Assembly: GCA_009914755.4 (NCBI GenBank)
Contig: CP068257.2
Coordinates: 6,944,001 to 7,008,000, forward strand
Length of the DNA: 64,000 nucleotides
Direction: 5' to 3'
DNA from: the human T2T-CHM13v2.0 reference genome, Homo sapiens
Under the pieces are notes generated by a model. That model worked only from the letters and a program-made list of their open reading frames with translations, was not told the DNA's origin and did no database searches. Shown here piece after piece: positions 2,588 to 44,673 of the stretch (position 1 is its first letter; each line of letters begins with the position of its first letter). The translations under genes were made by a program, and so were the position numbers.

Positions 2588-3155
<568 letters not shown>

Positions 3156-4404
3156 AAAAGTATTTCATTCATTTTATATTATATATGTGTACACACACAC
3201 ACATACATAAATGAAGTCTGTAGTATAGTTACAGGTAAAATATGCATATGTGTTAAGTAGTATATTTGGCATATTTTGAAAGTTGCTGTCTTTTACTAGA
3301 GAATTTAACCTATTTACATTTGCTATCCATGGACTTGAATGTTAGCTTAACAGACATTAAAATTTTGGTTTTAAATAATTTTTTATAGACTTAGGAAAAC
3401 AAAGATTTTTTGGGGGTTTCTTTTTAATTCAGTATTGGTAATGAGAACTGATGCCCGATTCTTCTTTTTTTGTAATGATTTGTTTTCTTTTTTATGTGGC
3501 TCCAAGAATTTTCCTTTTATCCTTGTTATTTCAAACTTTCTGGGAAGTTTTTACCTGAACCTGCCATTCAGGGAGTTTAAAGAGGCATTGTTACAGATCA
3601 AGAGTGAGTATTTTTGTAGGGATATAGAGATAAGTGGAACAGTGATAATGACTCTTTGGGTTTTAGGTTCCTCATCTGTTGAATGAGGATTATGCTTAAT
3701 TAAATGTTAGCTTTTATTATTAGATATATACATAACTTTTCCTTTAGAATTTTAGTGATTATAATCCCTTCTATTTTCTCCCCTTCTGGTACTCATATAA
3801 AACAGACGTTGCACCTTCTGGATCAGATTTTCATGTCATTCTGCCTCTTTCTCTTGCTTTCCATCTTTGTTCTTTATTACTGCATCCTGGGAGAATCCTA
3901 GTTGCCTAACACTAAAAACAGATTGGTGAAGATTAAAAACAAATTTGGAGCATGGGGAGCCTTACAATACTTATTTATTAGAGCACGTAGCCTAAAACCA
4001 TTGCTATAGTTGGTACAGAATAAATACTGGATAATTAATTAAATGAACTGTGGAATATTTAACTTCTTGGTACTTTTTTATGATACAACTTTAATCTCAG
4101 AAATTTTGTTCATTCTGTTTTTTATAGATACATTTTGACAGATTATTTCAATCTATTAAATAAAAGTTTTGAAAATTCCTCAGACTCATTCTTAAAATTG
4201 GTAATATGAGTTCTCACTGAGTTTTTGTTGTTGTTATTGTGTTCTTGGATTAATATGGGAAAATATTATTATAACATGTTGCTTTTTTCCTTTTCTTACT
4301 CCCTGTCTTTTCAATGATGAATAAAAGTAAAAAGAAAAAATGCCATCTAGGAATTTTCATTATTGATTCAAATAAACCATTTAGTTGATAAACCATTTAA
4401 GGGC

Positions 4405-4834
<430 letters not shown>

Positions 4835-5730
4835 TAAGAGTGTTGACATTTGAGAAGTTCCCTGTAGAAATCTATTCTTTGATATTGTCTATGATTTTAC
4901 AAGTACTTTTTATTTGGTTTAGGAAGATACATTCCAGACTGTGTATATATAATAAACATTTTCTTTTAATGCCGAGTGCTCTTCATTAGCTATTTAATTG
5001 TAACATATGGGTTTGAAGCGTTCCCCTAAATGTAGTGTTTTATTTTCCTTCTTTTATTCACTGATATCTTTATATGATATTGTGAATTAGTATGTTAGAT
5101 ATATTCCAGTACTTTTCATAATAGTTTAGCTAATATAATATTTTTCATTGCAGATATGATTAAGAGAACATATTGGTGTTTCTAAAATGAGAAAGACATT
5201 GAGAACCTGGTCAATTTAAATTATTTTCTGTTATTATATACTTACCTCTCATTATATTTTATCTGCCAAGATTATTTTTAGTGCAAAAGGCTTCTGCAAA
5301 ACTTGCCATATGGTATCAAAATAAGCGATTTTAGATTTTAACAATTTAGCAGAAATTAGTTATGTTAATGAGTTGTTATAAACATTTTTCAACAGATTGA
5401 TTGTACTTTTTCTTTCGACATTTACGTGACCTTTCTCTTTGGACATTTAGACTACCAAGGTGTTGTATTTGCAGTTAATTCTGGGTTCTGTTAATGCACT
5501 AAACATATTTAGATACCTTGGGCATTACAATATAAAAAATTACCTGTTTTGTAAAAGCTGGTTATTACACTTTATCAATGAAGACAAATATTTATTTTTT
5601 TCTGTGTTTCTAATGCATTAATACCCTTGAGTGCCAAAATAGCACTGAAATGTTATTCTGTATACTTATAAACATTATATAAAATTAAAGTGTCACAACA
5701 GTAATTAGTGTTTATGAGTTATTTAGAAGC

Positions 5731-5933
5731 TTCTCCTGCTTCAGCCTCCTGAGTAGCTGGGACTACAGGTGCCCGCCACCACATCCGGCTAAATTTTTGT
5801 ATTTTCAGTAGAGATGGAGTTTCACTGTGTCAGCCAGGATGGTCTCGATCTCCTGACCTCGTGATCCACCCGCCTTGGCCTTCCAAAGTGCCAGGATTAC
5901 AGGTGTGAGCCACCGGGCCGGCCAGAGTTTTGT
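5731..5933 (-). mobile_element. Truncated Alu, antisense; lacks its 3' third and poly(A)
   Basis: cagcctcctgagtagctgggactacaggtgcccgccaccacatccggctaaatttttgtattttcagtagagatggagtttcac...gtgccaggattacaggtgtgagccaccgggccggcc. Confidence 0.85.
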
Positions 5934-7307
5934 ATCTCTTTCTTTTCTTCTTTCTGATTCAGCCCTCAGGAGTCATTTAGCTTTGTTATGTTGATTCAAT
6001 GCAGTAGACTGATGACAGTGAGGAAGAGTTTGATAGTATGTGAGATACAGATTTACACATAAAACATTGAAAACAATTATAATTTTAACTACTGTAGTCC
6101 CTGGTTAATTAGCAGAATATAAAGTCAGTGTAGTAACATGTGAAGATATCCACAGTAATGTTAGCAGGGTCCAACTGTCTCTGCTACGTGAGGCTCCAGT
6201 TATCTCAGCTAAGCTGTTTATGAGCCACACTCACAAACAAGATCACCAAAAGTTAAGTCTTTTTGGTATATGTATAGGAACACCTATCTATTAGGGCCTG
6301 TTTGAAGCAGCATTTTTGGTGCTTTGGATACAAAGATAGTATGGTGCCTCAACTGAAGGATCTTGGATTAGGATGAGAAAAAGGTAAACTGATCATGTAA
6401 TGGCATAAGCAAGTAGGTACCATGTAACGGTGTAAACAAAAATTTATGTTAGATAGTCATTTCCCAAAGAGAGATTTCATACTGTATAGTACAGGGCTCA
6501 TCAGACTCTCTTCAAAGAAAATGATGCTCAAAATGGACTTGGGAGAATGAGGAAGAGTTTGTGAATCATTCTAAGGGAAAACTGAATAAGTAAATGCAAC
6601 ATTTTACATAATTTCTTCTGACTTCTTATGTGTTCACTTGCCCTAGACTGCCCCTCTTGTTTGGGGCTTATTTCTGTGCGTTTTACCACTTGCAAGATAA
6701 TGGAGGCAGGTTGAAATGGGAAAGATACCAGATGACTAATTTTTTTCCCCCACATTTCTATCTTTTGTTAAGAAATTTGAAGTTGATTGCTACATTGAAA
6801 TATGTAGTTTTGTTTTTTTTTGTGAGTCTTTAACCATTTGTGTCCCTGTTAACTTATAATTGATGAGTTTATTTTGTATTTATTTTTAGGCAGGGTAAAA
6901 TAGTAATATGCCTCATAAATAATATATGTTCCTATTACTAGTTTTGGTAGGATTTAAAAACTTTATAATAATCCTCAATATAGAAACCTGCCCCTTTAAC
7001 CATATTACCATTTGCTTTTAAAAAAAAATCTTTAGGTTTTGTTTCTAAAATGGTTCACAATTTATTTTTGAAAATATAAGGAATGAAATTCTAACTTTCT
7101 AATTTGAATGGAAGGATGAGTTGGTAGCACACGAAGCACTAAATTGAGTAATGTAGATTTTATTATTTTTAACGAATCCTTTAATATTTTGCAGGTTCAA
7201 TTTGTTTACTTGTGATGTACAGAGAGTTTTTTATACCTTCCCAGCTTATATTTGAATATTCCTTTTCAAGGTTTTATAAAGAGATTTCTCGCCTTTACCC
7301 CTTTCAG

Positions 7308-7470
7308 CGATGTGCATTTTGTAAGCACTTTGGAGCCACTATCAAATGCTGTGAAGAGAAATGTACCCAGATGTATCATTATCCTTGTGCTGCAGGAGCC
7401 AGCTCCTTTCAGGATTTCAGTCACATCTTCCTGCTTTGTCCAGAACACATTGACCAAGCTCCTGAAAGAT
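7308..7470 (+). CDS. KMT2C: KMT2C-like exon encoding the C-terminal part of the first PHD/ePHD finger
   Basis: Acceptor cctttacccctttcag at 7292-7307, donor gtaagt at 7471. Translation: RCAFCKHFGATIKCCEEKCTQMYHYPCAAGASSFQDFSHIFLLCPEHIDQAPER. Confidence 0.8.
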
Positions 7471-7688
7471 GTAAGTTTACTACGGATAGACTTTTAAACT
7501 TCAACCAATGTATTTACTGAAAATAACAAATGTTGTAAATTCCCTGAGTGTTATTCTACTTGTATTAAAAGGTAATAATACATAATCATTAAAATCTGAG
7601 GGATCGTTGCCAGAGATTGTTGGGGAGGGAAATGTTATCAACGGTTTCATTGAAATTAAATCCAAAAAGTTATTTCCTCAGAAAAATC

Positions 7689-7694
7689 AAATAA
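7689..7694 (+). promoter_or_regulatory. Canonical AATAAA poly(A) signal with a GT/T-rich downstream element (gtttgcgtgttttttatt), about 220 nt past the unspliced donor of the 7308 exon
   Basis: aatcaaataaagtttgcgtgttttttattc. A possible terminal-exon read-through of the kind reported for BAGE transcripts. Confidence 0.35.
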
Positions 7695-9495
7695 AGTTTG
7701 CGTGTTTTTTATTCTTAAAACATTTTAAAAACCACTGAAGAAAGATGTAAATAGGGACTGTGCAGTATTTCTGACATATACTATAAAATTATTAAAAAGT
7801 CAATCAGTATTCAACATCTTTTACACTAAAAAGCCATCCAGTTGAAGAATTAGAAGAAAGTTCACTCAGGTGTTATTTCAGGATTTACGTTAATAGGAAC
7901 ACCAAACCCTTCTGAAATTCTTGGAAATTTTGTATCCCTGATAGGTGTGATAGAAATCTCTGCTAGCACCTTTTCATGATTCATCTATCTTAGTCATCTG
8001 TAATCTGCAGTTGTGCTGTTTTCCTTTCTTTTCCAAATAGTATTTTATAATTCAATGAAAATGTTTAAATGCTTGAAATTTACATTATACAGGAAATCAT
8101 AACTCTACTATTGTATCATTAAATAGAGATCTCTCCTTTTTCTTACTATGTGTTTTCCCAATGAGCATGTATATTTTGGCATCTTTTTTCTCCTAGTCTG
8201 TTGAATTTCCAATCTTATTATGGAACCTCCATGATATTTTATTCAGTCTTTTTTATGTCACCTCTTATTTACCTAATGTTAGCTTTTACCTGTTCCTTAG
8301 CAATGTTGATAAAAGCTTTTTTTCCTATCTTCTCCAGGTCTGTGAAACATAAGTATAGCTACTCCAGGCTTAAACTAATCTAAAATATGGTTAGTGTACA
8401 TGATCATTACCCTTTATCTTTGTTGAGTACCCTAATTTCATTTTCCATTAAAATTATTTTGTGTCCACATATGTAATCATATCACCCTTAGTAACCTAGT
8501 GTACAGACAAATTATAGGTAAGGCAAACAAAAATTTTAAATTATATTTAAGCTAATAAGGGATTTAAAGTTTTAAAATGCTTTAGATTGTACACTCTTCA
8601 ATCTGGAAGAGAAGAACTTTCATGCACAGCAACTGTTGTGGCTACTATTTATGTACTGAGTTACTTCAGCAAGTGCATACACTGGCAGTTATCAGAGTGG
8701 ATTATATTCTGAGTGGCATAATAAATATACTTTGTCATCTCAATAAAACAATTTTATGTGTATGTAAGAATCTGAATTTTATTCAGCCTTTTGTGTAGTC
8801 ATGCTTTAGACCTCAGTAAACAACATGCAAACTTGTATAAGAATGTTGCTCTGATGTTAGAACATTTTTTTACTCAATGGCAGTGCTACTTTCTACTGAA
8901 AACTGTGTTCTAATAGTGTATACCTTCAGTTACATGTTAGCAATCATAAATCAGTTTGTAAAATAATAAACTAAATACTGAGGTGAGATAATTTGCTGTT
9001 GTTGATCATGTATATAATGAAAGGTTTATGGCAACATAAAGCTAAAAGATATACTAAAATTATGAGTACTCTGCCTTTTTCCAAAATAGACTTATGGAGA
9101 CTCATAAAAATACATGAGCAAAAGGATAAAACTAAAAATAAGTAAGGAAATTTGGCAATGGAAAATTTAGATAGGATAAATATGAAGATAATAGAGAGAC
9201 CCCCAAAAAATGTGTAATTCCAGACAAACCACAAATTTGGCCCCATACCTTTTCAACAGTCAATACAAAGAAGGACATATGAGCCCTTAATCTGATTCTT
9301 ACTATTTATAACATCACTTGATATAATGATATAATAATAAGACATCCCTTGATAGAATGCAATGAAAAATTGTCTTAAAGTAGCCACCTTGCAGTAGAAA
9401 AATACCAGTTTCATAGGGCTGTTGCTTATAGCAGCCTTCAAACTAAGTCAGTGGTATAAAATCAAGGCCTAAATGACTAAATTAGATTTCTTTGG

Positions 9496-9800
9496 TTTTT
9501 TTTTTTTTTTTTTTTTTGAGATGGAGTCTCGCTCTGTCACCCTGGCTGGAATGAAGTGGCATGGCCTTGGCTCACTGCAAACTCCGCTTTCTGGGTTCAG
9601 GTGATTTCTCCTGCCTCAGCCTCCCAAGTAGGTGGGATTACAGGCGCACACCATAACACCCGGCTAATTTTTTGTATTTTTAGTAGAGACGGGGTTTCAC
9701 TATGTTGGCTAGATTTGTCTCGGACTCCTGACCTCGTGGTCTGCCCGTCTCAGCCTCCCAAACTGCTGGGATACAGAGGTGTGAGCCATCGTGCCCGGCC
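9496..9800 (-). mobile_element. Alu SINE, antisense
   Basis: Poly-T (22 nt), then gagatggagtctcgctctgtcaccctggctgg...gtgagccatcgtgcccggcc. Confidence 0.9.
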
Positions 9801-12800
9801 TCCTTGGGGATCTTAAACAGTGCATTCTAACTACACAGCGTTCTGACTCATCTGTTAAGAAGATCATAATCTTGGATTAAGTTCCAAGGATATAATTTAA
9901 AGAATATTGCAGATAGGATGTTTTGTCACCTTTTTAACATCTTTTATAAATATTTCTTCCTATCCTAATTGTGTGTCATGGCAGAAGTTACTTTTTATGC
10001 TTTTAAAATGATACTGTCTTAAATCATAGTGCTATTATGAGTGTTAAATGAACACAATGAATGGAATTCACATAACATTGTGCCTTGTATATATTAATTG
10101 CTTTAAAAAGGGTAGATATTTTACCTCATATCTAAGGCTTAAGTTATGAGAATGATAATACATATTGAGTATATGTATTTTCTGTTGCTTCCTAAAGGGC
10201 AGAGCAGTAGCTGTGATAGTTGACTGAGTTAGGAGTAAGGTTGACATCTTTTTATAAAAGTTGAGAAATTTAACAAAAGCATGTATCTCATTATAAAGAA
10301 ATCCACTAAAGAGAGTATCTGTGAAGAAGGCCAAGATTTTCATCAGGAAACACTTTTAGGGTGCTCTGTCATAGGTAAATGGCTGGTCATTGTTGCAACA
10401 TTATTTTCATGATGATACAAGGATACATTAACCTTGTCTGGAAATTTTACACTAAAAATCCATCTAGGAGATACAACCAGATATACTTCCTGAATAGGTA
10501 AACTGAATGGTAAGAAGCCAATCATGCAAGATAAGAGGAAAGACATTCCAGGGAGAGGGAACAGACCACTACACAGACCTTGAGGAGTGGACTTGGCATG
10601 ATTCATGAACAGACAGCATGTCATTTTACTTGGAGCATAGTAGCCTACTAGGTGGGGGTAGTAGAGACATCATCAAGGCGAACAAAGGCTAGATCATGAA
10701 GGCTTGTAAGCAAGGGAAGGAGTTTGGGTTCTGTTCGGTCTGCAATGAGAAGTTTTTGCAAGGTTTAAACATGGAAATGCTACATATCTTAATTCACCCC
10801 CTGTTCCTCAATGTATTTACTCATCATTTAGCTTTAATTCCTTTTACTTCACTTAAGCTTTAACTCCAGCCTCTTTTCTTTGGTTATCTTTGTATTTCTT
10901 GACATTAAGTCCTGCTGCTTTTCTTTTACCCTAAATTCTGTCAGTCCTCTGACCTTTCTTATCTACCTGCCAATGATATGGTCTAGCCTCTTTGGATGAC
11001 ATCCATGATTTATTTTTTCTTTCCAGAGATTCTCTTTTATAGACAAATCACTCAGCCCAGTGTCCTGCCAGTGATGAAAATTGGCAGATGATAGGGTGTG
11101 ATGGAAATTAGAAAGCAATGCTGATTTGGTCCTTTTTCAATTTACACTGTATGACAGCTATTTTGACTTTTCTTGCTGTTCACCAATGCTTTTATTCTTA
11201 TGTGTTGTCTGGACTTTCTTAAGCAATAGTTTCATCAAGTTTAAGGATCTGTGATAAGCTCTGTTCTAATTTAAGCTGAATGTTTTTGTCTTTTTTATTT
11301 ATCTCTTCTCTTTTTACAGCTGTCTCTTAGGAAATGACCTTCTCTAAAGATGATCATTTTGTTTCCTCTCACTTTTCTCCTGCCATAAGAACCTTGCTCC
11401 CTTTACTTCATTTAGCTTTATTGTATGCCATTGTTGGCATTTCATGTCTACTTTTGTGTATACTCAAATACTCATCACTTTCATTGATCAGTAGTAAAGT
11501 TTGCTGAGGAGTCAATTTGATTAGTAGTCAAGAGCCTGATCTTAGAAGCCAAATAGACCTGGACTTTACTCCTCTCCCCTCTTAAATTATCTTTAGTTAT
11601 AGCCTGTCTTTTTGCTTTTTCAACTGTTTAAAGAAAAATTTTTTAGTTGATTATTGCTTTAAACTTAATGTCTCTGGCTTACAGACATGTGTGTCTAAAT
11701 ATTCATATTTAATTTCTGTGATGACACCAAACCTATCCAGTAGTATCGATAATCTTCTTATACATGACCTCCGTAAGGTTGTTTCAGTATTCCCACACAT
11801 CTTCTCCCTGACTGGGAGGGTTGGAACCAACCTCATTTCTTTGTGTAGTGCTTTTAAAAATAATATTGTTTTTCACATAAGGTATATTAAGTGTTTTTGC
11901 ACCAGATGTATTACATGGATGTTTTCCTTTGACTAATTTATTACCAATGATCCATAGTAATCAGATAACACAGCAAGGTTGTCAGTAAGGCATTGGTGGA
12001 GATCATCATAGTCTAAAAAGTGATTTTTGTGACAATGACAGTTGTCTTGTTGCAGAGTGAACTTTGTTGTATATAACAGTGCTGTGCAGTATAAATATAA
12101 TGTGAGCAACATAAGTAATTTTTCTAGTGGGTATGTTAAAAATTTGAGAAAAAGGAAACATTTGGGAAGAATTGTAGTAAATTTTATTTAATTCAGTAAT
12201 CCAAAATAGTAATATTTCAAATTTTGAGATACTTTTTCCCCATTAAGATTTTGGAATTCAGTGTGCATTTTATGCTTACTGCATACCTCGATTTGAACTA
12301 ATTACATTTCACTTGTTCAGAAACCACATGTCGCTAATAGCTACCATGGCAACTTGAAGTGTCAGGGGAGCAAACTCTAGAAAGTTTCACAGAAGCATTT
12401 TAGTGTTCCTAGGAGAGTATAATAGAAAAATGAATTGATTATCTGATAATTAGTTTCTGATAATTAGTTGAGTATTCCCCCAATTTTTAAAAGTTTTACA
12501 GTGAGCAAAAAGAGATCAATTTTTCAATGTACATATTTTGAAAGATAAATACTAGTACTCTCAATATTAAGAAACATAACATCCCAGTTATGTCCTTTCT
12601 ATCAAAAATGAACCAATTTATGATGCTTCCATTGTTAATGATTTATTTTAAATGCCTATCACTTAAAGAGCCATTTAAAAGTGATTTTAGCAGTAAGTCC
12701 TTCACTTAAAATATGTTCAATAAGACTTGATTCATGTTAGGCAGTTGGGGATACAAAGTTAAAAAAGTTAAGGCCCCTGTCCTTCAAGGATCCACAGAGT

Positions 12801-12919
12801 TGTGCTGTAAATAAATGATTATACAGAAGTTTCTTGTAAGCATATGGATAAAAGTAATATTCAACAACTAAATGGGTATTTGGGTGTGGTAATAGGTATT
12901 CAGGAAATAATGTGCAGAT

Positions 12920-13211
12920 TTTTTTTTTTTTGAGACAGGGTCTCACTCTGTCCCCCAGGCTGGAGTGCCGTGGCATAATCTCTAGTCACTGCAGCCTCCA
13001 CCTCCTGAGTTCAAGCGATTCTCCTGCGTCAGCCTCCTGAGTAGCTGGGACTACAGGCATGTGCCACCACACCCTGCTAATTTTGTATTTTTAGTAGAGA
13101 TGGGGTTTCACCATGTTGGCCCGGCTGGTCTCGAACTCCTGACCTCAGGTGATCCATCTGCTTTGGCCTCCCAGAGTGCTGGGATTACAGGCGTGAGCCT
13201 CTGTGCCCAGC
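12920..13211 (-). mobile_element. Alu SINE, antisense
   Basis: Poly-T, then gagacagggtctcactctgtcccccaggctggagtgc...gctgggattacaggcgtgagcctctgtgcccagcc. Confidence 0.9.
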
Positions 13212-15175: not shown

Positions 15176-15989
15176 GAATACATTATTTTCCTTATTTTGC
15201 AATATGCATAAGTTTAACTGTATATTTGGCAGGGCAGTTTATCCTTATATTTTCTGTTTTATATAGTAAAAGAACTGTTAGTACATTTTCTTTTAATCCA
15301 CATTTAGGGATGGATGATGTCCATAATTATGTGGATTTTAATGCTTTTACAACTAGAAATTAATATAGATGAATATAGAATTAGTATATTAAGTAATGTG
15401 TTTGTGTATGAATATGTAGCTTCTGTCTTTAATGTTCTTCCACATAAGACATTTTCCAGTAATTAAAAAAAAGCCCTTATGTGATTTGAATAGTCTGTTT
15501 ATGCTTAAGAAGCATCTTAGTCTAATTGATATTAACGTTTCTTAATTTTGTCTCTTGTCTGATTTTGTAATTGCAAAATATATTTAGCATTCAAAGAAAA
15601 TGTTTATGTTACACTGCAAAGCATTTCTTAGTTGGTATTTTCCTTGTTTGGTTCTTTGCAGTGAGCATATATTGAGCATTAATTAGGTATCCAGCATTAT
15701 CATTGGCATTAGGAATAGAAAATTAAAGAAGACCTGCTTATGGTCTTAAGTAGATATAGCCACAAATAATTGCAAAACTATACGATTAAATTTAATGTGG
15801 TTACATTTAGATTAAATACCCTACAGTGTTTTTATTGATACCTCTTTCTGATTAGATGACAATTCAATGTGAATAACTTCAAATGTCTGAAAGGTTCATG
15901 ATGCAAATCCTTTCAAATGATTTTACTGTGTAGTCAGAAAAAATTTTAATTCTTATACAACAATTTCATTGTTTTACTGTTAATTATGG

Positions 15990-16161
15990 TGAAGGAAGAT
16001 GCAAACTGTGCAGTATGCGACAGCCCGGGAGACCTCTTAGATCAGTTCTTTTGTACTACTTGTGGTCAGCACTATCATGGAATGTGCCTGGATATAGCGG
16101 TTACTCCATTAAAACTTGCAGGTTGGCAATGTCCTGAGTGCAAAGTGTGACAGAACTGCAA
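15990..16161 (+). pseudogene. KMT2C: KMT2C-like exon encoding PHD finger 2 (residues K339 to about C395 equivalent), with TGA replacing the last zinc-ligand Cys
   Basis: Translation: KEDANCAVCDSPGDLLDQFFCTTCGQHYHGMCLDIAVTPLKLAGWQCPECKV*QNCK. The stop is TGA at 16148-16150, in frame (a TGC-to-TGA change at the C391-equivalent codon). Donor gtaagt at 16162. The 5' boundary is uncertain because no AG sits at the phase-required position. Confidence 0.8.
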
Positions 16162-18014
16162 GTAAGTTTTCATTTCAATTCAAAGCTGTGTATTGGGTTT
16201 AAGAGGGACCCTATTACTAGGCGCTAAAAGTTTGTGTAATATAATAGAGGTTGTTCATATTTTGGCTGTATTCATTCAGAGTGACTTCATCATACTTAAA
16301 AAAATTACTGGATATTAACGTTTATATTATTTTGAAAGAAGTCTAAACAAAACTGATTTCAATCATTTAAATTGCTCTGATCGTCTAAAGAGCTAATTTA
16401 AATTTACCAACAGTTTAAAAAATAAGCGATATTAACAATTTAAAACAAGCATGAGAAGAATAAAGTAGCTTGTCTTCAGGTGCACCGGGGAGGGGATGTG
16501 ATAGGATTTAAACCTCTCACTACAGACGTAGAAGAATTAGAGTTGAGTCAAAACGTCAGTCATGTGTTTGAATTTCCATTCCAGGAAGGACGCTTTCTAC
16601 TATTATTTTAATGTACATCTGCATCTCTCTAAAAGCCACCTTGAGTAGATCCTGCTCAGCATAATTCCAAAATGAAATATGTGGCATTTACAAATTTATA
16701 AGGGGGTTATCTTTTCCTATTGTATTTCATCTCTTGGTCATTTCTCCAGTCTTTTCTGTGATTTCCGCTTGCACCCCCATGATTCTAATGAGCATGATAA
16801 TTTGGGGATGTTACCAGCATCTTCATTTACAGGCTGAGAATTTTTGTTGTAACCAGCAAGAATTATGCCCAACTGCCATGATCAGTCTGTTTTTATTATT
16901 TAGTTTTAAAAGAAATAAGCGTCAATATCTTAGAGTTACGTGACATAAATAGGACTATGTACCTTCATATTTTGGTAAAAATTAGATAAAATATTCAGTA
17001 AACATTTATTCGATACCTTGTATCTGCACTCAGTTTCTTGGGAAGGATTAAAAGAACTTGAAGGAAGAGTACTTGTCCTCCAAGATCTTTGCATGTAGCT
17101 GAAGAGATAAAACATGTGAGTTTTTATGGAGAGGTTGAACTGAATAATAATTGGAGGCCAACTGGCCCATCTTCCTGTTGACTTCTGTTTATCCCCCAGA
17201 TTTCATTCAGAGATTCCTCTCTCATCTCTTCTTGCTTTCCCTGTTTTTTCTCTTCCCCTCCTCTTGAATTTAAAATCATAGTATCTGAAAGTAATTATAG
17301 TCAAAAATCTCAACAGAGATAACGCTGTAGGACAGGGGCCCAATCTTTGGGGGCAGAAGAGTGTTTAAAGAAAGGTTTTAGGTTTTCAATTATAATTCTT
17401 AATAATTATGACAAGGTTCGTCTTTTGAAATAATTATTCAGCATTTAATTGCTTAATAGACATTCTAAGCACTTGAACCTGCATTACATTTAATTCTCAC
17501 AGTAATGTTTATTATTCCCGTTTTATACCTGAAACTCAGAGAGCTTTAGTCTAAGTTGTTTAGTGACACAGCTAGAAAACAGCAGCCTGAATACAAATAG
17601 AGATCTGATGCCAAATTTGATCCTCTTTACGTTATATGACAGTCTTTTCAATTTGCTGTGCCAAGATTTGATCTTTCCACACAGTAGCACATAGCAGTTA
17701 TAGCGCCTTCCTCTCAAAAATTATATTTTAAAAGTAAAGATCAAAGGCTATTCATCTTGCCTTAACCCTTCCTCCTTTGCAGGAATCCTAAAATGGCTAG
17801 AGCAAGTTAACCATAGGTGAGCATTGAGTAAAGATCACCATTTAGGAGGTAATCCTTATGGTAGGGTTACCTCTGTTACTATCTGCAGAGACAAAACAGA
17901 TACTGAGGTATTTATGAACTGTGCGGTTCCCAGGACTGATGATTTTCATGATTACTTATGTTGCAAAACATAAGTTTAAAGATAAGCCATCATTAATGCT
18001 ATCTTACTTTTTAG

Positions 18015-18129
18015 ACAATCGGGAGAAGATAGCAAGATGCTAGTGTGTGATACGTGTGACAAAGGGTATCATACTTTTTGTCTTCAACGAATTATGAAAT
18101 CTGTACCAACCAATGGCTGGAAATGCAAA
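18015..18129 (+). CDS. KMT2C: KMT2C-like exon, start of the next PHD finger
   Basis: Acceptor ctttttag at 18007-18014, donor gtaagt at 18130. With the 2-nt carry-over it reads (K)QSGEDSKMLVCDTCDKGYHTFCLQRIMKSVPTNGWKCK. Phase is [14 protein letters not shown] the previous exon. Confidence 0.85.
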
Positions 18130-18639
18130 GTAAGTTGTTTACTTTTTTAAATCCTCTGTATGTTTTATATGGAGAACAGACAAATCGGATATCTATTCAA
18201 ATCTATACATTACCATCAGCTTTTTAAAAACAGCTTTATTGACATATAACTGACATACAGTAAACTGTACACTCTTCAAGATAATGAACATAGTCATCAC
18301 CGTCAAAGTTTCCTGGTGCCTCTTGGCTTGCTTTGTGGCTGTTCAAACCCAAACCCTCTGTCTTCCTAGTCTGCTTTTTCACTATAGATTAGTATTCACT
18401 TCCTAGAATTTTTAATAAAAGCTTCATATAGTATATACTCGTTTTTGGTCTGGCTTCTTTAACTCAGTGTAATTATTTTGAAATGCATCTCTATTGCTGC
18501 ACAGATCAGTAGTGATTCTTTTGTATTACTGAGTGCTGGAGATACCACAATTTGTTTATTGAATCACCTGTTGGTGAACATTTGGGTCCTTTAAAATTTT
18601 GATCTATTATAAAAAATGCCGATGAACTCATTAACTAAC

Positions 18640-19060
18640 TTCCTACCTCACTTGGCTTCTGCCCCTTCAGGGGGAGGTGTTCAGAGCCAGGTTGGGGGCA
18701 GTGGGGTAGTGGAGATAGCCCTTGGAATCCAAGGTGCGGTTTAGCTTTTAAGCTTAGTCTTCCTGGGCTGCTGGTGTCGCGAGGTTGAGGGATGGAGATG
18801 ACCCTCAGGTGCTGCATGGGCCTGGAGCGTGTTCTCCCTGGAGCTGGAGAGGGCGTGATGGCCCGTGTGCGGGAGTGGAAGGCACAGCATTGTCATTGCC
18901 CTTCTCGGAACTGCTTTTTCTAGGGAGGAGGTGGAGGGCCTGGGAAAGGAGGATGATGTCGCCAGAACCCCAGGTCCCTGGCGTGGGGAGGAGGTGGGAG
19001 CAGACTCAGAGAGATTCTGTACCTGCACCCTGTCCTCGCCAGTGAGGTTTGGCACCTAGA
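18640..19060. other. Unexplained GC-rich block of ~420 bp (~60% GC, several CpGs) inside otherwise AT-rich intron-like sequence
   Basis: Overlapping stop-free ORFs of 60-104 aa on both strands (18741..19055, 18785..19045, 18865..19059, 18920..19102). These are typical of GC-rich non-coding DNA. I could not match the block to Alu, L1, SVA or LTR signatures. Confidence 0.3.
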
Positions 19061-20917
19061 ACTGCAAGCAGTATTACCAGGTTCTGTTGTGGTCTTCAGC
19101 AAGTTCTACTAGGCATCTGCCTGAGTGGTGGGGGTTGAGGGGAGGGGCTTTCTCTCCTGGGGGGAAAAAGAGCTGCTGGGTAACTGTGCTCAGCTGTGGC
19201 TACCTGGGAAGTGGGACCTGAGGGCTGAAGGATTGTGATGAACTCTGGCCTGCTTCCTCAGGTTGTTCAGATTCCTTCTCTTGCTGAATGACATCATTGG
19301 AAAGGAAAAACTCTGCTGTTTGACTGATTTGTATATTTACACTCTTATCTTCACTCAGTTCCTCTACTTGCCTTTTTAGTTTTAATATGAAGTTGAATTT
19401 GTAATTCATTTTCTTTCCTAAGGAAAAAGGACATTTAAGACTATAAGTTTACCTTAGGCTATAGCTTTGACTGAAGCCAAGTTTATTGTATTTGTAACTT
19501 TATGTATGTATATACCTTAGCGAATAAGTTTTTTTAAGTTGTGCTGAAGTATGTTAATTTATGCTTACATTTCATTTAATCAGAGAATTTAACTAAGGTA
19601 GGTTTTTTAAAATAAATATTTTGATACTTGAAGTATTGACTTTTTAAAGGTGTAGCATTTGTGTTTATTAATTTCATTTAGTTAGATGAAGTCCTTTTAC
19701 CTTATTTTTTGACTTGTTGATTCAACAAGTTACAATTGACCACTATTAATTGTTCCTATCAATTTATCATATTTTTAAACAAATAATTTGTGGCTGTTAT
19801 TTAGCAAGTAGGTCAGGCCAGTGTTAATATATTGTGTTTTTTACCAGTATAAAATTGTTCTTTATTCTATTTAATGTGTTTTTTGTTGAGGGATCAGGAA
19901 GGGCAGGTATTTTGCTTTGCCTGACACTATGGCCACGTAGGGTGTTAGTTTAACAGTTGAATGGTTATCTTTTCACACTTATTTTAGATTCTTTTGTGTT
20001 ATAAAAATGTATCTTTTGAAAAGCTTAATAGAAGTAACTGTTTGGATTGATGGTTGTAATTGAAATGCTTGGCTGTTTTGAGGCAAAATTTTTATTTTCT
20101 TTCTATTTTTCTCTTCTTTTACTTCCTGCAATGATTTATAATTCAGAATCTCATTTTGTGAATGTAAATGATTATAAATATTAAAGATATAAATTTTCTC
20201 CCATTCCCCACTGAAAATAAAGTTTTTATTCCCCTTTTGTCTCATTCGATTAACCTAGATTGTAAACCTTGTCACAATTTTCTTGCAAAAATATATTTCC
20301 TCTGTTAATTCCAACTTTACCCTCAATCTTTCGGAGTCTTGGTTGTGATCCTTTAAAAATAATTATAACGTTTTTGAAACCCTACATGTCGGAAAGAGAC
20401 TGTTCCTTTTAGGCTATAAGAACTTGGAACAGTATAATGTTTCATATTACAAATTTTTCTTTTTTATACTCTGAAAACATTTTCTTCAGTTTTTTTCAGT
20501 TTATGCTGTCACGAGAAAAATCTTAACTTGAAAAAATTTAATCATAATCCTTTTTTTCTTCCTGAAAGCTTTGGGAGATGTGTGAATCCCCATCCCCGCC
20601 TCCACCCCCCGCCCCAGCACCTTTTTAAAAAAATATATTTACTTAAAAAATTACCTTCTTTACACTCTCTAATAATATCTAGTAACTACTGGATAATTTT
20701 TGTCTCTTGCTCTTAATCTTCTTTATTATGGTTTTCATTGTCTTGAGAACTGGTAGAGAATTCTGGGTGTCTTTCTCAGCTTGTTCTGTCTCCCCTTTGG
20801 TGTGCTTCTTTTCGATTTGCTCTTTGTAATCTGCTGTTCTCTTTTGAGAGTGACAGGATTACATAATTTCTGGGAATACTATTGGATACTTAATCTTTTT
20901 ATTCTGTTCTATGAAGG

Positions 20918-21125
20918 CACTATAGTGTGGTGGTTAAAAGCTTATGCTGTGGAGTCAAACTGTAGTTTTTTCAGTTACTAAATTGATGATCTTTGGCTAC
21001 CTGTTTAACTTCCCTAAGTCAGTGTATAGAAGGTTAACGGTACTTACCTCACAGGGATGTTGGATTTAGTGAAGTGGTATCTATAAAGTGCCCAGCACAA
21101 TGCCTAACACAAAGTAAGTACAGAA
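20918..21125 (+). mobile_element. MIR SINE, ancient mammalian-wide interspersed repeat
   Basis: cactatagtgtggtggttaaaagc..tgctgtggagtcaaactg...tacctcacagggatgttggatttagtgaagtggtatctataaagtgcccagcacaatgcctaacacaaagtaagtac aligns to the MIR consensus core. Confidence 0.75.
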
Positions 21126-21626
21126 ACAGTTACCATAGAGTTTTTCTTGGATTGAAAGGTTTGTCCTTTGAACCATTTGAAGAATGATCATCTTTCTCTG
21201 CTGTTGAATTCTTCTGTAGTCCTCTCTGTAGTCTTGAGTCATAATTTGCTCATTTGTTTGCATTTAACATTTGAGTGTTTACTGTGTGCGAACACCACTG
21301 TAGTGAAGGCTGGAGATGTTGGGGCAAATCAGTGTGCCCCCACGGGGCTGTCAGTCTAGTTTGGGGCTGCTCCCTGGTGAGCTGGAGTGGGGTTGATCTT
21401 TTCAGGATCTTTATTGTAAACCAGTCATTGTCAGATAGGTTTCTTTTTCCTATTTTTATCTCAAGAATGTCTGTTCTTTGGTATGTTATGCGTTTTTAGA
21501 AAGTTTTTACTTGAAAATAAGTTCAAACTCTAAAAGTTGGAAAAAATAAAAATAATACCTATATCCCATTTACTTAGATATATCTGTTGTTAGCATTTCA
21601 TTATCATTGGGCATGCCCTCTCTCAC

Positions 21627-21672
21627 TTTCTCTGTGTGTGTGTGTGTGTGTATGTGTGTGTGTCTGTGTGTC
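21627..21672. repeat. (GT)n microsatellite, imperfect
   Basis: gtgtgtgtgtgtgtgtgtatgtgtgtgtgtctgtgtgtc. Confidence 0.9.
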
Positions 21673-22273
21673 TCTATTCCCCCAACCCCCTACTATTTGA
21701 GGGTTAATTACATACATTGTGCCTTTTTACCACCATTTCAGTATGTATTTCTTAATAGTAGGAATATTCTTAAAAAATCACAATCCTGCTATCAAATTCC
21801 TAAACTTACATCAATGACATATGTTTATCTAACGTACCAGCCATATTACAGTTATGTCATTTGATCTTATGTCCTTCATAATCTACCCCTTCCTCCAAGT
21901 AGGTTCTAGGATTTAGTTTTTGTCATTGGTATTTTTGAAGAATAGAGTTCTTCTCGATATACTTGTTTTTTTTTTTCTTTTTTCAAACAGAAATTTCTCC
22001 ATTTTGTTTTTGATAACCCCTTATAATTAGATGAGAGGCATGCATTATTGGCCAGAATACTGCAAAATGCTGATCCATCCTCAGGGTATCACAACTGGAA
22101 GCATATATTATTCCACTTTCCCTCATGAGAATCACCTGGTCAGGCTGTTGCCCAATTTCTATTCCCCCCTCCTTTGTATCTAATAAAGCAGTATGTGAGG
22201 ATACTTTAAGACGATGCAAATATCTTGCTTTTCCTCAGAATTTCCTTCTAGATTTGAAAAACTTACTCCCTAG

Positions 22274-22560
22274 GCCGGGTGTGGTGGCTCACACCTGTAA
22301 TCCCAGCACTTTGGGAGGCTGAAGTGGGTGGATCAGTTGAGGTCAGGAGTTCGAGATCAGCCTGGCCAACATGGTGAAACCCTGTCTGTACTAAAAATAC
22401 AAAAATTAGCCAGGCATGGTAGCGGGTGCCATGTAATCCCAGCTACTCAGGATGCTGAGACCGGAGAATCGCTTGAACCCAGGAGGTGAGGTTGCAGTGA
22501 GTTGGACTCATGCTACTACACTCCAGCCTGGGTGACATAGATAGACTCTATCTCAAAAAA
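22274..22560 (+). mobile_element. Alu SINE, sense, with TSD aaacttactc/gcc
   Basis: ggccgggtgtggtggctcacacctgtaatcccagcactttgggaggctgaagtgggtggatcag...ccagcctgggtgacatagatagactctatctcaaaaaa. The flanking repeat aaacttactccc / aaacttactgcc is the TSD. Confidence 0.9.
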
Positions 22561-22602
22561 CAGCAACAACAACAGCAACAACAGCAACAACAACAACAAA
22601 CT
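22561..22602. repeat. (CAA/CAG)n trinucleotide microsatellite abutting the Alu tail
   Basis: cagcaacaacaacagcaacaacagcaacaacaacaacaaac. Confidence 0.9.
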
Positions 22603-23089
22603 TACTGCCTGATGATGCCATTTTAACATGCTTTCTTTTGGTTGCAAATGATGCATTTCCAGCTCTAGCACTCCCACCACATTTACCAGTTAGCCCTCTG
22701 CTTTCTTTTGTAAGCAAGAACACTTCTTTCACATGTTAAGCTTACTATTAATATTGACTCATGAACTCCTATTATCTTCAATCATTTACAACTCATTACC
22801 TAATTATTTTTTGGCTCAAATAGTCACATACTTGCTGTCAGTTGCTCCTTCAAGCTGGCACTGGTGTTCTGCCCTCACCGCTTTTTTGAACACTTCATTA
22901 CTTTTTGGTGTAACAAGATGTTACAAGCTCATCTTATACCTCCCATGCCCGAGTCCTGGAATAAGTCCATTGTTAAATAAGTAACCCAGATTCCTTTAGT
23001 GGGGAATGGGTGCCGGGTGTGCTCATTGCTACTGGAGGGTGTTTACTTCTTCACCCTTTCAGCAGGTGGTGTCACGAAATACATGCATG

Positions 23090-23213
23090 TGTATACACTT
23101 ACAGAAGTTTGTCCAACCCATGGCCCGCAGGCTACATGTGGTCCAGGATGGCTTTGAATGTGGCCCAACAGAAATTCATAAAATTTCTTAAAACATTATG
23201 AGGTTTTTTTTTT

Positions 23214-23253
<40 letters not shown>

Positions 23254-23345
23254 CTCATCAGCTGTCATTACTGTTAGTGTATCTTGTGTGTGGCCCAAGA
23301 CGATTCTTCTTTCAATGTGGTCCAGGAAAGCCAAAAGATTGAACA
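23090..23345. repeat. Unclassified interspersed repeat carrying an embedded (GT)17 microsatellite at 23217-23252
   Basis: gtttgtccaacccatggcccgcaggctacatgtggtccaggatggctttgaatgtggcccaacagaaattcataaaatttcttaaaacattatgag...tagctcatcagctgtcattactgttagtgt...tgtggcccaagacgattcttc is a motif family I recognise as repetitive but cannot name confidently. Confidence 0.4.
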
Positions 23346-24506
23346 CCCCTACACGTTATGTATATACACATAAATATTCATATACATATACATAACTTAG
23401 AAATAATGAATTTATACCAGCACCTCCAGTTCTTATCCTTCTCCACTGAGTTCTTTGCCTTTTCATTCTTGCATGTCTGTTCTTCTACAGTAAAAATTCT
23501 GGGTTGTAGAACAGCACATTTATTCAGTTGCTTAATCTAAAAAGCAAGTCTGCTTCAGTTTGCTCTCAGTAATAGATTTTATTCCCCTTTTTCTTAGTGA
23601 TTTAATTTTTTAAATATAGAAAGTATTAGTATACTTTCAAAACTTAAAACTATATGAAATTTTGCTCAGAATTGTCACTGTCTCTTGTTTATTACTTATA
23701 CCGCATTTCCCCCAGCCTCTTGGAAGTAACTAACTTCATTGTTTTCTGTTTTAAACCTCCTGTTATTTTTCATCTAATAATAAGAGGATATATTGCTCTT
23801 TCAGTGAAGGTAGCATGTTGTATATGTTCTTTTGCATGTTGCTTTTTTCATGTAATAAAATCTGGAAATCACTTCCAGGCAAGTTAGGCAAGTTCAAGAG
23901 ATCTCATTCTCCTTTTAAACAGCTGCATAGCACTCCATTGTGTATCTGTGCTATCGGTTACACAACCAGTGGCCTGTGCTTTGGTATTTCAGTAGTTTAT
24001 GATATTTTGCATTATAAATGATTTTACACTCCCTGGCTTTGTGCATGTGTGTTTTTGAATTCTCAGGGACAAATCTGTAGGGTAAATTCCTAGGATTATT
24101 GCCTCAGGAGTGTACACATATGTAGCTTTGTTAGATACTGTGAAATTCCCTTTTTTGGGGCTTATGGTACTTTGCATTGCCACCAGAGATGTGTGAGAGA
24201 ACTTTTCCTACGTCTTTGCTAACAGGATGACTTGTTTAGCTTTTGAATGTTTGTCTGTCTTCTGGGTGAAAAGTAGTGTATCAATGTAGTTTTAAATTTT
24301 GTTTATCCTTAGAGTGAAGTTGATCGTTTTTTCATGTGTTTAAGGGTCAGTTTTTATTTCTTCTCATGAATTGTCTGTTCGTGTGTTTTGCCTGTTATTG
24401 AAGATTTTGGCATTTTTCCCTAAATTTAAGAGTTCTTTATAAGTTAGGGATGTAAGCCTTTATATGTGTTACATGATGCAGATACTTTCTGCTAGCTTAT
24501 TTGTTC

Positions 24507-24727
24507 TTTTTTTTTTTTTTTTGTGCTTATTTGTGTGAGACAGTGTCTCACCCTGTCACTCCGGCCATAGTACATTGGTATGGTCATAGTTCACTGTAGC
24601 CTTGACCTGGGCTCAAGCAATCTTCCTGCCTCAGCCTCCCGAGTTAGCTAGGAGTTATGTCTACCACGAAGCCCAGCTAATTTTTTACTTTTGTAGAGAC
24701 AGGGTCTCACCATGTTGTCCAGGCTGT
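24507..24727 (-). mobile_element. Truncated Alu, antisense
   Basis: Poly-T, then ...gagacagtgtctcaccctgtcactccggcc...cctgcctcagcctcccgagttagctagg...ttttgtagagacagggtctcaccatgttgtccaggctg. Confidence 0.8.
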
Positions 24728-25198
24728 ATTATGTGTCTTTTGACTTTGTTTTTATTATTTTTTTTGCCATGCAAAAGTTTCTTTTTGTGGAGTTAGATTT
24801 ATTAATCTTCTTTTGCTTCTATATTTTTGAGTCATATTCAGAAAGCCTTTCCCTACACTGAGGGTATAGAGGACACAGATAGTCTTCTCATTGCTGGTAA
24901 GCAGTATGTTCATATTGTCTAATTTGATTGAGTTATAAGATAATGTCTTTATCCCAAAGACATTTTTGCAATTGCTGTATGTATATACATTACAGTAACT
25001 AAATCTTTTAGTTAAGAGATTCTGGAAAAGAATTGACAATGGATCTAAAGTAGGTTAGTTTCTCTTGTAAGGCTTTTTTTTTTTGGAGGGGGGATGTCAT
25101 GATTAAAAATATTTTGTACTATCAGATCTGTTATTTGGTAGTTTTCTTTATCCTTACCTGTAGTCTTTCAATAAAGTGGGAAAGAAGATGAGATTTCA

Positions 25199-25440
<242 letters not shown>

Positions 25441-26165
25441 AACATAGATAAATAGATAAATTTTAGTCACTGATTGGTAAATGAGGCTAGCAGTGTCTTT
25501 TTACTATAACTTAAAAATTACCTTGATGAGATTGAGTTAAAGGTTTAACATACTGGTATCCTGATTTAAAATTTACTGGTGACTATGTTTCTGATATCTA
25601 AGTTTATAGATTTCCTGAGATTAGTCTTTTAATTTACAGACAATGATGAAGAACAACGATTATATCCAAAGAATATTTTGGCTAGGTTGGCAGGTATGGT
25701 TAAGCAAAATAAATATTGGTGGTTAGCAAATCTTTTCTGTCTGTGCTTTTGAGTCTATAGTAATTTGTCGCATCTGGGTATCTACTATTAGAAAATGCCT
25801 ACACATTCTAGATCAGTCTTTACTTTTTAACTTAGGTACCTCACATAACATGATTGATCCTCATTTTCTTAACTAAAAAATGAGTATGAGAACTTTTCCT
25901 GTGTAATTTTCAATCCATTTGGAAGTACTTGTGTTGTAAAACATGTTTTCATTAGGTTTTCTGGTGTGTGGCTGATTCTAATCCATAAATCCTTGTGTAC
26001 TTTGGCTTTCATTCACTTAATAATTGTCTGCTTTGATGAATACCTTCTGATTTAAGTTCTAGTGTAGTCAAATGTTTTATATATCTATAGTTAGAAAATT
26101 TAAAATTTGTTTGTACATTACCATAACAAATGTTCTGAATTTTGTAATATCATCCCAACATACAG

Positions 26166-44481: not shown

Positions 44482-44673
44482 GTTTGAACTTGAAAATTTA
44501 CTGTCTTCCTCATTGAATTCCTCCTTGCACATTTCTGCTTTATCTCATATACACAGAAGTGATCCAATATTTAGCTATAGAGCTATATTAGTTAAGAAGG
44601 TATTTTTAAAGTAAAATTTGTAGGTTTTTAGCTTAGTCTCCATTTAAAATATGTTCTGTTTTCTTAACTTCAG

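What the first reader, a model, noticed from the sequence alone, without database searches (positions are those of the whole stretch)
5731..7720. Possible BAGE-type transcript end: antisense Alu fragment, then a KMT2C exon-7-like exon read through into the intron, ending at AATAAA
The exon at 7308-7470 has a strong acceptor. About 220 nt downstream of its donor there is a canonical AATAAA (7689-7694) followed by a GT/T-rich element, which would make a composite terminal exon of ~400 nt. About 1.4 kb upstream lies a truncated antisense Alu (5731-5933) that carries the classic exonisable motifs (tattttcag|TAGAGATGG acceptor and CAG|GTGTGAGCC donor). BAGE genes are reported to be built from MLL3-derived exons plus repeat-derived exons and to terminate inside MLL3-derived sequence, so this arrangement is worth checking.
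Basis: partly seen in the sequence, partly recalled or inferred. Interest (0 to 1): 0.5.

Follow-up and report, generated by a model that had tools for sequence, protein, structure and literature searches.

The report
BAGE-type 3′ end in KMT2C copy
This stretch is a decayed duplicate of part of the human KMT2C (MLL3) gene, and its Alu-derived exon plus read-through "exon 7" match the known tail of BAGE1-type cancer/testis transcripts, so it is a known kind of locus rather than a new feature.

Summary
The described sequence features are all present, with small coordinate corrections. The window is a pseudogenised copy of KMT2C (MLL3). It is collinear with macaque KMT2C from intron 6 through exon 9 and about 6.6 kb beyond, at about 90% identity. 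KMT2C-like exons continue to about 44.8 kb and carry stop codons in the KMT2C frame. The exon-7 acceptor and donor, the AATAAA and its GT/T-rich tail are all present in macaque KMT2C too. They are inherited, not new, and an AATAAA this close is expected by chance (24% of positions). The Alu is an old antisense AluY-like insertion that a shared deletion truncated. The human copies gained a GT donor (CAGGCA to CAGGTG).

The BAGE1 cDNA as I recall it aligns as two blocks with canonical splice sites, 5812-5902 and 7308-7818. Published primers verify its 5′ half. Its 3′ half matches an independently fetched human contig better than it matches the window. The Alu acceptor lies 3 nt downstream of the proposed one. 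The recalled cDNA runs past the AATAAA and ends 22 nt after ATTAAA (7791-7796).

No tool gave transcript evidence. The BAGE 5′ exon is not in the window. In this copy the exon-8-like acceptor is destroyed (AG to GG). The locus type is already known and of low interest.

The parts
5731..5923 (-). Truncated antisense AluY-like element (consensus positions 1-194). The rest of the element, its tail repeat and the unique flank were lost in a deletion of about 270 bp.
   Evidence: macaque KMT2C has the full-length Alu plus a (TTTC)n tract at the orthologous site (L001 about 8163-8630); human contigs L002, L006 and L007 share the truncation.
5812..5902 (+). Putative Alu-derived exon of 91 nt. The acceptor AG is at 5810-5811 and the donor GT at 5903-5904.
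   Evidence: block 1 of the recalled BAGE1 cDNA matches 88 of 91 nt; the donor is CAG|GC in macaque and CAG|GT here; the GT is present in 8 of 9 human contigs.
7308..7470 (+). KMT2C exon-7-like exon. Frame 0 gives the KMT2C extended-PHD segment. Frame +1 gives DVHFVSTLEPLSNAVKRNVPRC..., the C-terminal part of BAGE2/3.
   Evidence: the exon and both splice sites are identical in layout to macaque KMT2C.
7471..7476 (+). Donor GTAAGT of the exon-7-like exon. It is used in BAGE2/3-type and KMT2C mRNAs and read through in the BAGE1-type mRNA.
7690..7714 (+). AATAAA (7690-7695) plus the GT/T-rich stretch GTTTGCGTGTTTTTTATTC.
   Evidence: conserved in macaque KMT2C intron 7; the hexamer is frequent by chance.
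7791..7818 (+). ATTAAA (7791-7796) and the point where the recalled BAGE1 cDNA ends (7818). This is the likely poly(A) signal and cleavage region of the reference cDNA.
   Evidence: The cDNA is from memory.
7308..7818 (+). Composite terminal exon of a BAGE1-type transcript: the exon-7-like exon plus 348 nt of former intron 7.
   Evidence: 505 of 511 nt match the recalled cDNA.
15988..16161 (+). KMT2C exon-8-like exon (15990-16161). Its acceptor AG is mutated to GG (15988-15989), its first bases are changed to TG, and it has an in-frame TGA at 16148-16150.
   Evidence: macaque TTATAG|CAAAGG against window TTATGG|TGAAGG. PDB 2YSM (MLL3) alignment shows Cys replaced by a stop.

Best explanation
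Identity of the locus. The region is the 3' module of a BAGE-family locus. BAGE loci are hominoid pericentromeric duplicates of a KMT2C (MLL3) fragment.

Features inherited from KMT2C. These are an old antisense Alu in intron 6, exon 7 with its strong acceptor and GTAAGT donor, and several poly(A) hexamers in intron 7.

How the family uses them (largely inferred from a recalled cDNA). In BAGE1-type mRNAs a 5' BAGE exon lying outside this window is spliced to a 91-nt exon exonised from the Alu (5812-5902). The Alu donor was created by a C to T change, CAGGC to CAGGT. That exon is then spliced to the exon-7-like exon at 7308. The donor at 7471 is not used. The transcript runs on into the former intron and is cleaved after an intronic poly(A) signal. 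The reference cDNA appears to end near 7818, after ATTAAA 7791. AATAAA 7690 is a possible proximal site. This makes a composite terminal exon that is all 3' UTR. In BAGE2/3-type mRNAs the same exon is internal, read in the +1 frame, and spliced on to the exon-8-like exon.

This copy. The exon-8-like acceptor is destroyed. If the copy is transcribed, only the intronic-polyadenylation ending, a cryptic acceptor, or skipping to the exon-9-like exon remains available.

Shown: the homology, the signals, their ancestry and the dead acceptor. Inferred: that transcripts use the signals, and that this copy is expressed at all.
For: - Collinear alignment of window 1-24719 to the macaque KMT2C locus at 86.5-94% identity per block, about 90% overall.
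- Base-level conservation of the exon, both splice sites, and the AATAAA with its GT-rich tail.
- Exons 8/9-like match PDB 2YSM (MLL3 PHD1-2) at 208 bits, with R to L and Cys to stop. There are further stops in KMT2C-like exons.
- Frame +1 of 7308-7470 equals the BAGE2/3 C-terminal peptide as I recall it, 52 of 54 residues.
- The recalled BAGE1 cDNA aligns as 5812-5902 and 7308-7818, with AG before both blocks and GT after the first.
- Recall check 1: published BAGE primers and probe all lie in the recalled 5' half, and the recalled primer-to-primer distance is 286 nt. That this equals the reported amplicon size is also from memory.
- Recall check 2: the recalled 3' half has 1 mismatch in 511 nt to contig L003 and 2 to L010, against 6 to the window. 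At 7485 (C) and 7743 (T) it carries variants found in human contigs but not in the window or in macaque.
- The literature confirms that BAGE loci are full-length and truncated genes in juxtacentromeric regions of chromosomes 9, 13, 18 and 21, generated from MLL3.
- Loss of the exon-8-like acceptor.
Against: - The cDNA used for the key alignment comes from my memory, not from a database. No tool returned a BAGE cDNA, EST, poly(A)-site read or spliced ORF.
- One recalled base (7606 A) matches no genomic copy, and 5893-5894 (GA) matches none of those covering it.
- The BAGE 5' exon is absent from the window: the peptide [10 protein letters not shown]..., the primers, and the 385 recalled nucleotides. 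A promoter for this copy is therefore not shown.
- This copy is the most divergent of the ten sampled (97.0-98.3% identity). Published work says truncated BAGE loci are nonfunctional.
- A consensus GTAAGT donor 219 nt upstream would normally suppress a nearby poly(A) site through U1 snRNP (established knowledge).
- The hexamers are expected by chance.
Confidence: 0.65

Rival explanations
1. Inert relic. This copy is one of the truncated, untranscribed BAGE gene fragments or KMT2C pseudogene pieces. The Alu motifs, the exon and the hexamers are passively inherited sequence, and no RNA ends or is spliced here.
For: - All signals except the Alu GT donor pre-exist in macaque KMT2C.
- The hexamers are at chance frequency.
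- No BAGE 5' exon lies within the 7.3 kb upstream of the exon in the window.
- The copy is the most divergent of those sampled and carries a dead exon-8 acceptor and several stops.
- The literature states that truncated BAGE loci are nonfunctional and outnumber the five genes. Twelve loci were assayed together.
Against: - All splice and poly(A) signals needed for a BAGE1-type 3' end are intact in this copy.
- The 5' exon could lie upstream of the window.
- Nothing here tests expression either way.
Confidence: 0.45
2. Internal exon only. As in KMT2C and BAGE2/3, 7308-7470 is spliced at its GTAAGT donor to a downstream exon, and the intronic hexamers are never used. There is no transcript end in this interval.
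For: - The donor is consensus GTAAGT and is conserved.
- The +1-frame ORF continues into the exon-8-like sequence as ...RKMQTVQYATARETS, as in BAGE2/3.
- U1 binding at a strong donor suppresses nearby poly(A) sites (established knowledge).
Against: - In this copy the exon-8-like acceptor is GG, not AG, and the first codon in the BAGE frame becomes TGA.
- The recalled BAGE1 cDNA reads straight through the donor for 348 nt.
Confidence: 0.1
3. The window is the genuine KMT2C gene, and the finding is just its exon 7 with flanking introns.
For: Collinearity with macaque KMT2C and intact exon-7 and exon-9 splice sites.
Against: - In-frame stops in the exon 8-, 14- and 16-like exons, and a lost exon-8 acceptor.
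- Substitutions relative to the solved MLL3 PHD structure.
- About 9-10% divergence from macaque, more than I would expect for the single-copy human orthologue (my estimate is about 6-7%, from memory).
- Exons 10-13 were not found (query from memory).
Confidence: 0.01

Closest known systems
BAGE gene family and BAGE gene fragments: KMT2C/MLL3-derived juxtacentromeric duplicates on chromosomes 9, 13, 18 and 21 (Boel 1995; Ruault 2002, 2003)
   Same: - KMT2C intron 6 to exon-18-like content on one strand, pseudogenised in the KMT2C frame.
- Exon-7-like exon with the BAGE2/3 +1-frame peptide.
- Alu exon and read-through terminal exon matching the recalled BAGE1 cDNA at 97-99%.
   Different: - No BAGE 5' exon or ORF ([10 protein letters not shown]...) in the window.
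- The peptide differs from recalled BAGE2 (EPAPF against EPTAF; QYATARETS against QCATARETS).
- The exon-8-like acceptor is destroyed.
- It is about 2% diverged from nine other sampled copies.
- It is therefore not BAGE2 or BAGE3, and not identical to the BAGE1 cDNA. It may be a gene fragment.
KMT2C (MLL3) exon 7 with introns 6 and 7 at 7q36.1, the parent locus
   Same: Same Alu insertion site, same exon, same acceptor and donor, and the same AATAAA plus GT-rich element (macaque orthologue).
   Different: - In macaque the Alu is full length with a CAG|GC non-donor.
- The KMT2C reading frame is open in the parent and broken here.
- Exon 8 is spliceable in the parent.
Alu exonisation from antisense Alu elements (Sorek, Lev-Maor and Ast model)
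   Same: - Antisense orientation.
- Acceptor AG after the T-rich linker (TTTTCAGTAG|AG).
- Donor created by a C to T change in CAGGCG to give CAG|GT.
   Different: The exon lies in a 3' UTR of a young chimeric gene rather than being a cassette in a conserved coding gene. Its inclusion is not demonstrated here.
Composite terminal exons and intronic polyadenylation
   Same: An internal exon with a competent donor is extended to a hexamer plus a GU/U-rich element in the downstream intron.
   Different: The donor is near-consensus, which normally disfavours intronic polyadenylation. In this copy the loss of the next acceptor could tip the balance, but that is inference.

Membership tests
KMT2C (MLL3)-derived segmental duplication | Collinear nucleotide homology to KMT2C introns and exons | tested here: met
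   Window 1-24719 aligns in order to macaque KMT2C locus L001 at about 90% identity. The exons 8/9-like hit PDB 2YSM (MLL3) with E = 6.5e-61.
KMT2C (MLL3)-derived segmental duplication | A paralogue, not the functional parent gene (disabling lesions) | tested here: met
   Stops in the exon 8-, 14- and 16-like exons. The exon-8 acceptor is changed from AG to GG.
BAGE gene (full length) | 5' exon encoding [39 protein letters not shown] | tested here: inconclusive
   Not found anywhere in the 64-kb window by tblastn, primer search or blastn with the recalled 385 nt. It could lie upstream of the window start, which is 7.3 kb before the exon.
BAGE gene (BAGE1 type) | cDNA contains the Alu exon and the exon-7-like exon read through to an intronic poly(A) site | tested here: inconclusive
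   The recalled cDNA aligns at 5812-5902 and 7308-7818 with canonical boundaries. The cDNA itself is from memory and only partly validated.
BAGE gene (BAGE2/3 type) | Exon-7-like exon spliced to the exon-8-like exon, giving ...LLKDRRKMQTVQCATARETS | tested here: not met
   The acceptor of the exon-8-like exon is GG. The first codon in the BAGE frame would be TGA, and the peptide has Y in place of C.
BAGE gene | Juxtacentromeric location and cancer/testis-restricted expression | not testable with these tools
   No human reference genome or expression data are available. No satellite DNA was seen in the window.
Alu exonisation | Antisense Alu with a usable AG acceptor and a GT donor | tested here: met
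   The GT is derived relative to macaque GC.
Alu exonisation | Inclusion of the Alu segment in mature mRNA | not testable with these tools
   Only the recalled cDNA supports it. The protein databases held no spliced ORF.
Composite terminal exon / intronic polyadenylation | Poly(A) hexamer with a downstream GU/U-rich element in the intron after an unused donor | tested here: met
   AATAAA at 7690 with a GT/T-rich tail, and ATTAAA at 7791. This is not above chance.
Composite terminal exon / intronic polyadenylation | Mapped cleavage sites or 3'-end reads | not testable with these tools
   No EST or poly(A)-site resource is available.

The most novel reading that the evidence does not exclude
Two novel readings are not excluded.

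(1) This divergent copy can no longer splice to its exon-8-like exon. It could be an undescribed, transcribed BAGE-family member whose RNAs are forced to end by intronic polyadenylation at 7690-7818.

(2) The poly(A) module is conserved between macaque KMT2C and the human copies. It could also be used in the parent KMT2C gene to make a short N-terminal isoform.
Probability: 0.1. Interest if true: 0.35.

Novelty: already known. Interest (0 to 1): 0.2.

Why it matters
The result mainly serves as a correct annotation. The interval belongs to the KMT2C/BAGE paralogue family, which is a well-known source of false KMT2C variant calls. The family is also a textbook case of a young hominoid gene assembled from a frameshifted parental exon, an exonised Alu and a co-opted intronic poly(A) site. 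The comparison with macaque shows which pieces were already waiting in the KMT2C introns: the acceptors, the exon-7 donor and the hexamers. It also shows which piece was new: the Alu GT donor. The dead exon-8-like acceptor in this copy is a small copy-specific detail. It predicts which transcript forms the copy could still make.

Tried and rejected
- Searched the window for the classic BAGE RT-PCR primers and for the CFIF* coding end of BAGE1. Neither was found. The BAGE1 coding and 5' exon is therefore not in the window.
- A weak minus-strand tblastn hit (PEDGSAFCSIL, 22053-22085, E = 0.059) was dismissed as chance. The recalled 5' nucleotides give no blastn hit.
- Rfam gathering scan of the whole window: no hits.
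- Protein-database search with the BAGE-frame peptide gave only macaque and two other non-human ORFs, with no human BAGE2/3.
- Search with the KMT2C-frame peptide plus read-through tail gave only genomic-context ORFs and no spliced product.
- Exact look-up of the window's 101-aa ORF: not on record.
- The Ruault 2002 and 2003 papers and Grunau 2006 are not held in the library.
- Full-text searches for BAGE with Alu or exonisation, and for junction k-mers, found nothing.
- Tandem-repeat scan: no satellite DNA.
- The idea that the window is KMT2C itself is rejected because of stop codons and the lost acceptor.
- The idea that the AATAAA is a BAGE-specific innovation is rejected because it is in macaque KMT2C.
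Full report
**Observation.**
It occupies 5731-5923.
- The Alu contains tattttcag|tag|AGATGG (5800-5817) and CAG|GTGTGAGCC (5900-5911).
- The block 7308-7470 follows a pyrimidine-rich acceptor (ctcgcctttacccctttcag) and is followed by GTAAGT.
- In frame 0 the block reads RCAFCKHFGATIKCCEEKCTQMYHYPCAAGASSFQDFSHIFLLCPEHIDQAPER. This hits Pfam zf-HC5HC2H and PHD.
It lies 219 nt after the donor and is followed by GTTTGCGTGTTTTTTATTC.

As a statistical matter the hexamer means little.
- AATAAA occurs 79 times on the + strand, about 1.2 per kb.
- 24% of random positions have one within 250 nt downstream, and 41% have AATAAA or ATTAAA.
- Four ATTAAA hexamers lie nearby, at 7564, 7588, 7655 and 7791.

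**What the locus is.**
tblastn with KMT2C sequence recalled from memory found KMT2C-like exons in order on the + strand:
- 7308-7470
- about 15990-16161
- 18013-18129
- 26126-26866
- 35882-35998
- 38745-38888
- 44380-44799

Several of these carry in-frame stops.

Tool-based confirmation:
- The exon 8/9-like translation matches PDB 2YSM, annotated [quoted passage not shown], at 208 bits. It shows R to L, Cys to stop, P to R and V to I.
- A database ORF from Macaca mulatta led to the macaque KMT2C locus, L001. Its neighbouring gene product is 4575 aa with PHD, zf-HC5HC2H, FYRN, FYRC and SET domains.
- Window 1-24719 is collinear with L001 at 86.5-94% identity per block, about 90% overall.

The window is therefore a pseudogenised KMT2C paralogue, not KMT2C itself. 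The open literature held here confirms two points. MLL3 is duplicated on chromosomes 9, 13, 18 and 21 as the BAGE family. BAGE loci comprise full-length genes plus nonfunctional truncated genes, with twelve loci assayed together.

**Ancestry of the signals.**
The base-level alignment with macaque shows the following are all present in macaque KMT2C:
- the exon-7 acceptor;
- the AGAT|GTAAGT donor;
- the AATAAA and its GT/T-rich tail.

They are inherited intron features, not innovations of the duplicate.

The Alu is also ancestral. Macaque has a full-length antisense Alu preceded by a (TTTC)n tract. The window lacks about 270 bp (L001 about 8163-8430), which removed the unique flank, the repeat and about 100 bp of the Alu. 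The three human contigs that cover this point (L002, L006, L007) share the deletion.

Two changes are derived relative to macaque:
- tattttTag became tattttCag;
- more importantly, CAG|GCATGA became CAG|GTGTGA, which creates a GT donor.

Eight of nine human-derived contigs have the GT.

**Other human copies.**
One scan of metagenome contigs with a 26-mer from the intron returned nine human-contaminant contigs, L002-L010.
- They cover window 2838-12996.
- They are 97.0-98.3% identical to the window.
- They are 97.1-99.2% identical to each other.
- At least ten distinct copies are therefore sampled, allowing for possible assembly chimeras.
- The window is the most divergent of them.
- All contigs covering the exon carry the T at 7329 (Leu to Phe).

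**Comparison with BAGE transcripts.**
No tool holds human cDNAs, so this step rests on my memory of the sequences and is marked as such.

(a) BAGE2/3-type. The proteins as I recall them end ...GTAL|DVHFVSTLEPLSNAVKRNVPRCIIILVLQEP..FRISVTSSCFVQNTLTKLLKD|RRKMQTVQCATARETS.
- Frame +1 of 7308-7470 gives this peptide, 52 of 54 residues.
- The continuation RKMQTVQYATARETS lies at 15993-16037.
- In that transcript type the exon is therefore internal.

(b) BAGE1-type. I wrote down the BAGE1 cDNA from memory (987 nt) before inspecting the contigs.

The 5' half was checked as follows.
- Published oligos all fall in it. They are TGGCTCGTCTCACTCTGG, CGGCCAGAGCGGTTTTT, and the reverse complements of TCCTGTTGAGCTGCCGTCT, CTCCTCCTATTGCTCCTGTTG and the probe CGTCTCCATCACCGTGGCTGCCACAA.
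- The recalled distance between the classic primer pair is 286 nt. That figure as the reported amplicon size is also from memory.
- None of this 5' half is in the window, in L001 or in the contigs.

The 3' half aligns as two ungapped blocks.
- 5812-5902: 88 of 91 nt.
- 7308-7818: 505 of 511 nt.
- AG precedes both blocks and GT follows the first.

The recalled sequence is closer to independent contigs than to the window.
- It has 1 mismatch in 511 nt to L003 and 2 to L010.
- It has 6 mismatches to the window.
- It carries 7485C and 7743T, variants present in some human contigs but absent from the window and macaque.
- ORF P0004, from another contig, also has the 7485C-encoded His.

This argues that the recall is genuine rather than modelled on the window. 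It is still not a database result.

The architecture matches the recalled BAGE1 cDNA: an Alu exon, then the exon-7-like exon read through its donor into the former intron. Two details differ.
- The Alu acceptor is TAG|AGATGG (exon start 5812) rather than cag|TAGAG (5809). The published reverse primer ends ...GGAGGAG, which is [14 protein letters not shown] ...GGAGG|AGATGG.
- The recalled cDNA continues past AATAAA 7690 and stops at 7818, 22 nt after ATTAAA 7791-7796. The composite terminal exon is then about 511 nt. AATAAA 7690 may be a proximal alternative.

In BAGE1 the ORF ends upstream (...GTALCFIF*). This looks like read-through of the CT|GTGCTTC donor that BAGE2/3 use. The whole interval is then 3' UTR.

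**Copy-specific feature.**
In this window the exon-8-like acceptor is destroyed. Macaque has TTATAG|CAAAGG and the window has TTATGG|TGAAGG. The exon-9-like splice sites are intact. A BAGE2/3-type mRNA therefore cannot be made normally from this copy. If it is transcribed, three outcomes remain:
- termination in former intron 7;
- a cryptic AG;
- skipping to the exon-9-like exon.

This is inference. A consensus GTAAGT donor would ordinarily suppress nearby poly(A) sites through U1 snRNP (established knowledge).

**What is not known.**
It is unknown whether this copy is transcribed. The BAGE 5' exon and promoter are not in the window. The copy is relatively divergent. Most BAGE loci are reported to be silent fragments. 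No transcript evidence could be obtained. The protein collections contained only genomic-context ORFs. The key papers are not held. Text searches for junction k-mers found nothing.

**Verdict.**
It is right in kind, with corrected boundaries, and unproven for this copy.
- The thing itself is a member of an already described family.
- Interest is low. Its value lies in correct annotation and in a tidy illustration of how a young gene reused pre-existing intronic signals plus one new Alu donor.

Noticed in passing
window 15988-15992: The acceptor of the KMT2C exon-8-like exon is GG instead of AG, and the first two exon bases are TG instead of CA (macaque) or CG. This puts TGA in the BAGE frame. 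This copy cannot make a BAGE2/3-type splice.
   Followed up: yes
window 16148-16150, 26126-26866, 38745-38888: In-frame stop codons in the KMT2C frame of the exon 8-, 14- and 16-like exons. The substitutions F for L in the exon-7-like exon (7329T), SS for GT (7401A, 7404T) and L for R in the exon-8-like exon correspond, from memory, to recurrent 'KMT2C' false-positive variants (L291F, G315S, T316S, R380L, C391*).
   Followed up: partly
window 18130-26125: No match to KMT2C residues encoded by exons 10-13 (query from memory). The exon-9-like to exon-14-like distance is about 8 kb, against about 14.5 kb that I recall for KMT2C. This suggests a deletion of those exons in this copy.
   Followed up: no
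window 5730/5731 (L001 8163-8430): A deletion of about 270 bp relative to macaque removed unique flank, a (TTTC)n tract and about 100 bp of the Alu. It is shared by human contigs L002, L006 and L007, so it predates the spread of the copies or lies in the human lineage generally.
   Followed up: yes
L002-L010 (metagenome contigs): Nine human-contaminant contigs in public metagenome assemblies are all mutually distinct (97.1-99.2% identity). All those covering the exon carry the paralogue-type T at 7329. None looks like bona fide KMT2C. L009 keeps the ancestral CAG|GC in the Alu.
   Followed up: partly
L004, at window-equivalent 7402-7404: Contig L004 has GCCGACACC, giving EPTPF in the BAGE frame. 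This matches my recollection of BAGE3, so it may represent that gene.
   Followed up: no
window 48000-56000: GC skew turns negative after about 48 kb, beyond the last KMT2C-like exon found (44799). Whether this marks the end of the KMT2C-derived segment was not examined. No satellite or long tandem repeat is present in the window.
   Followed up: no
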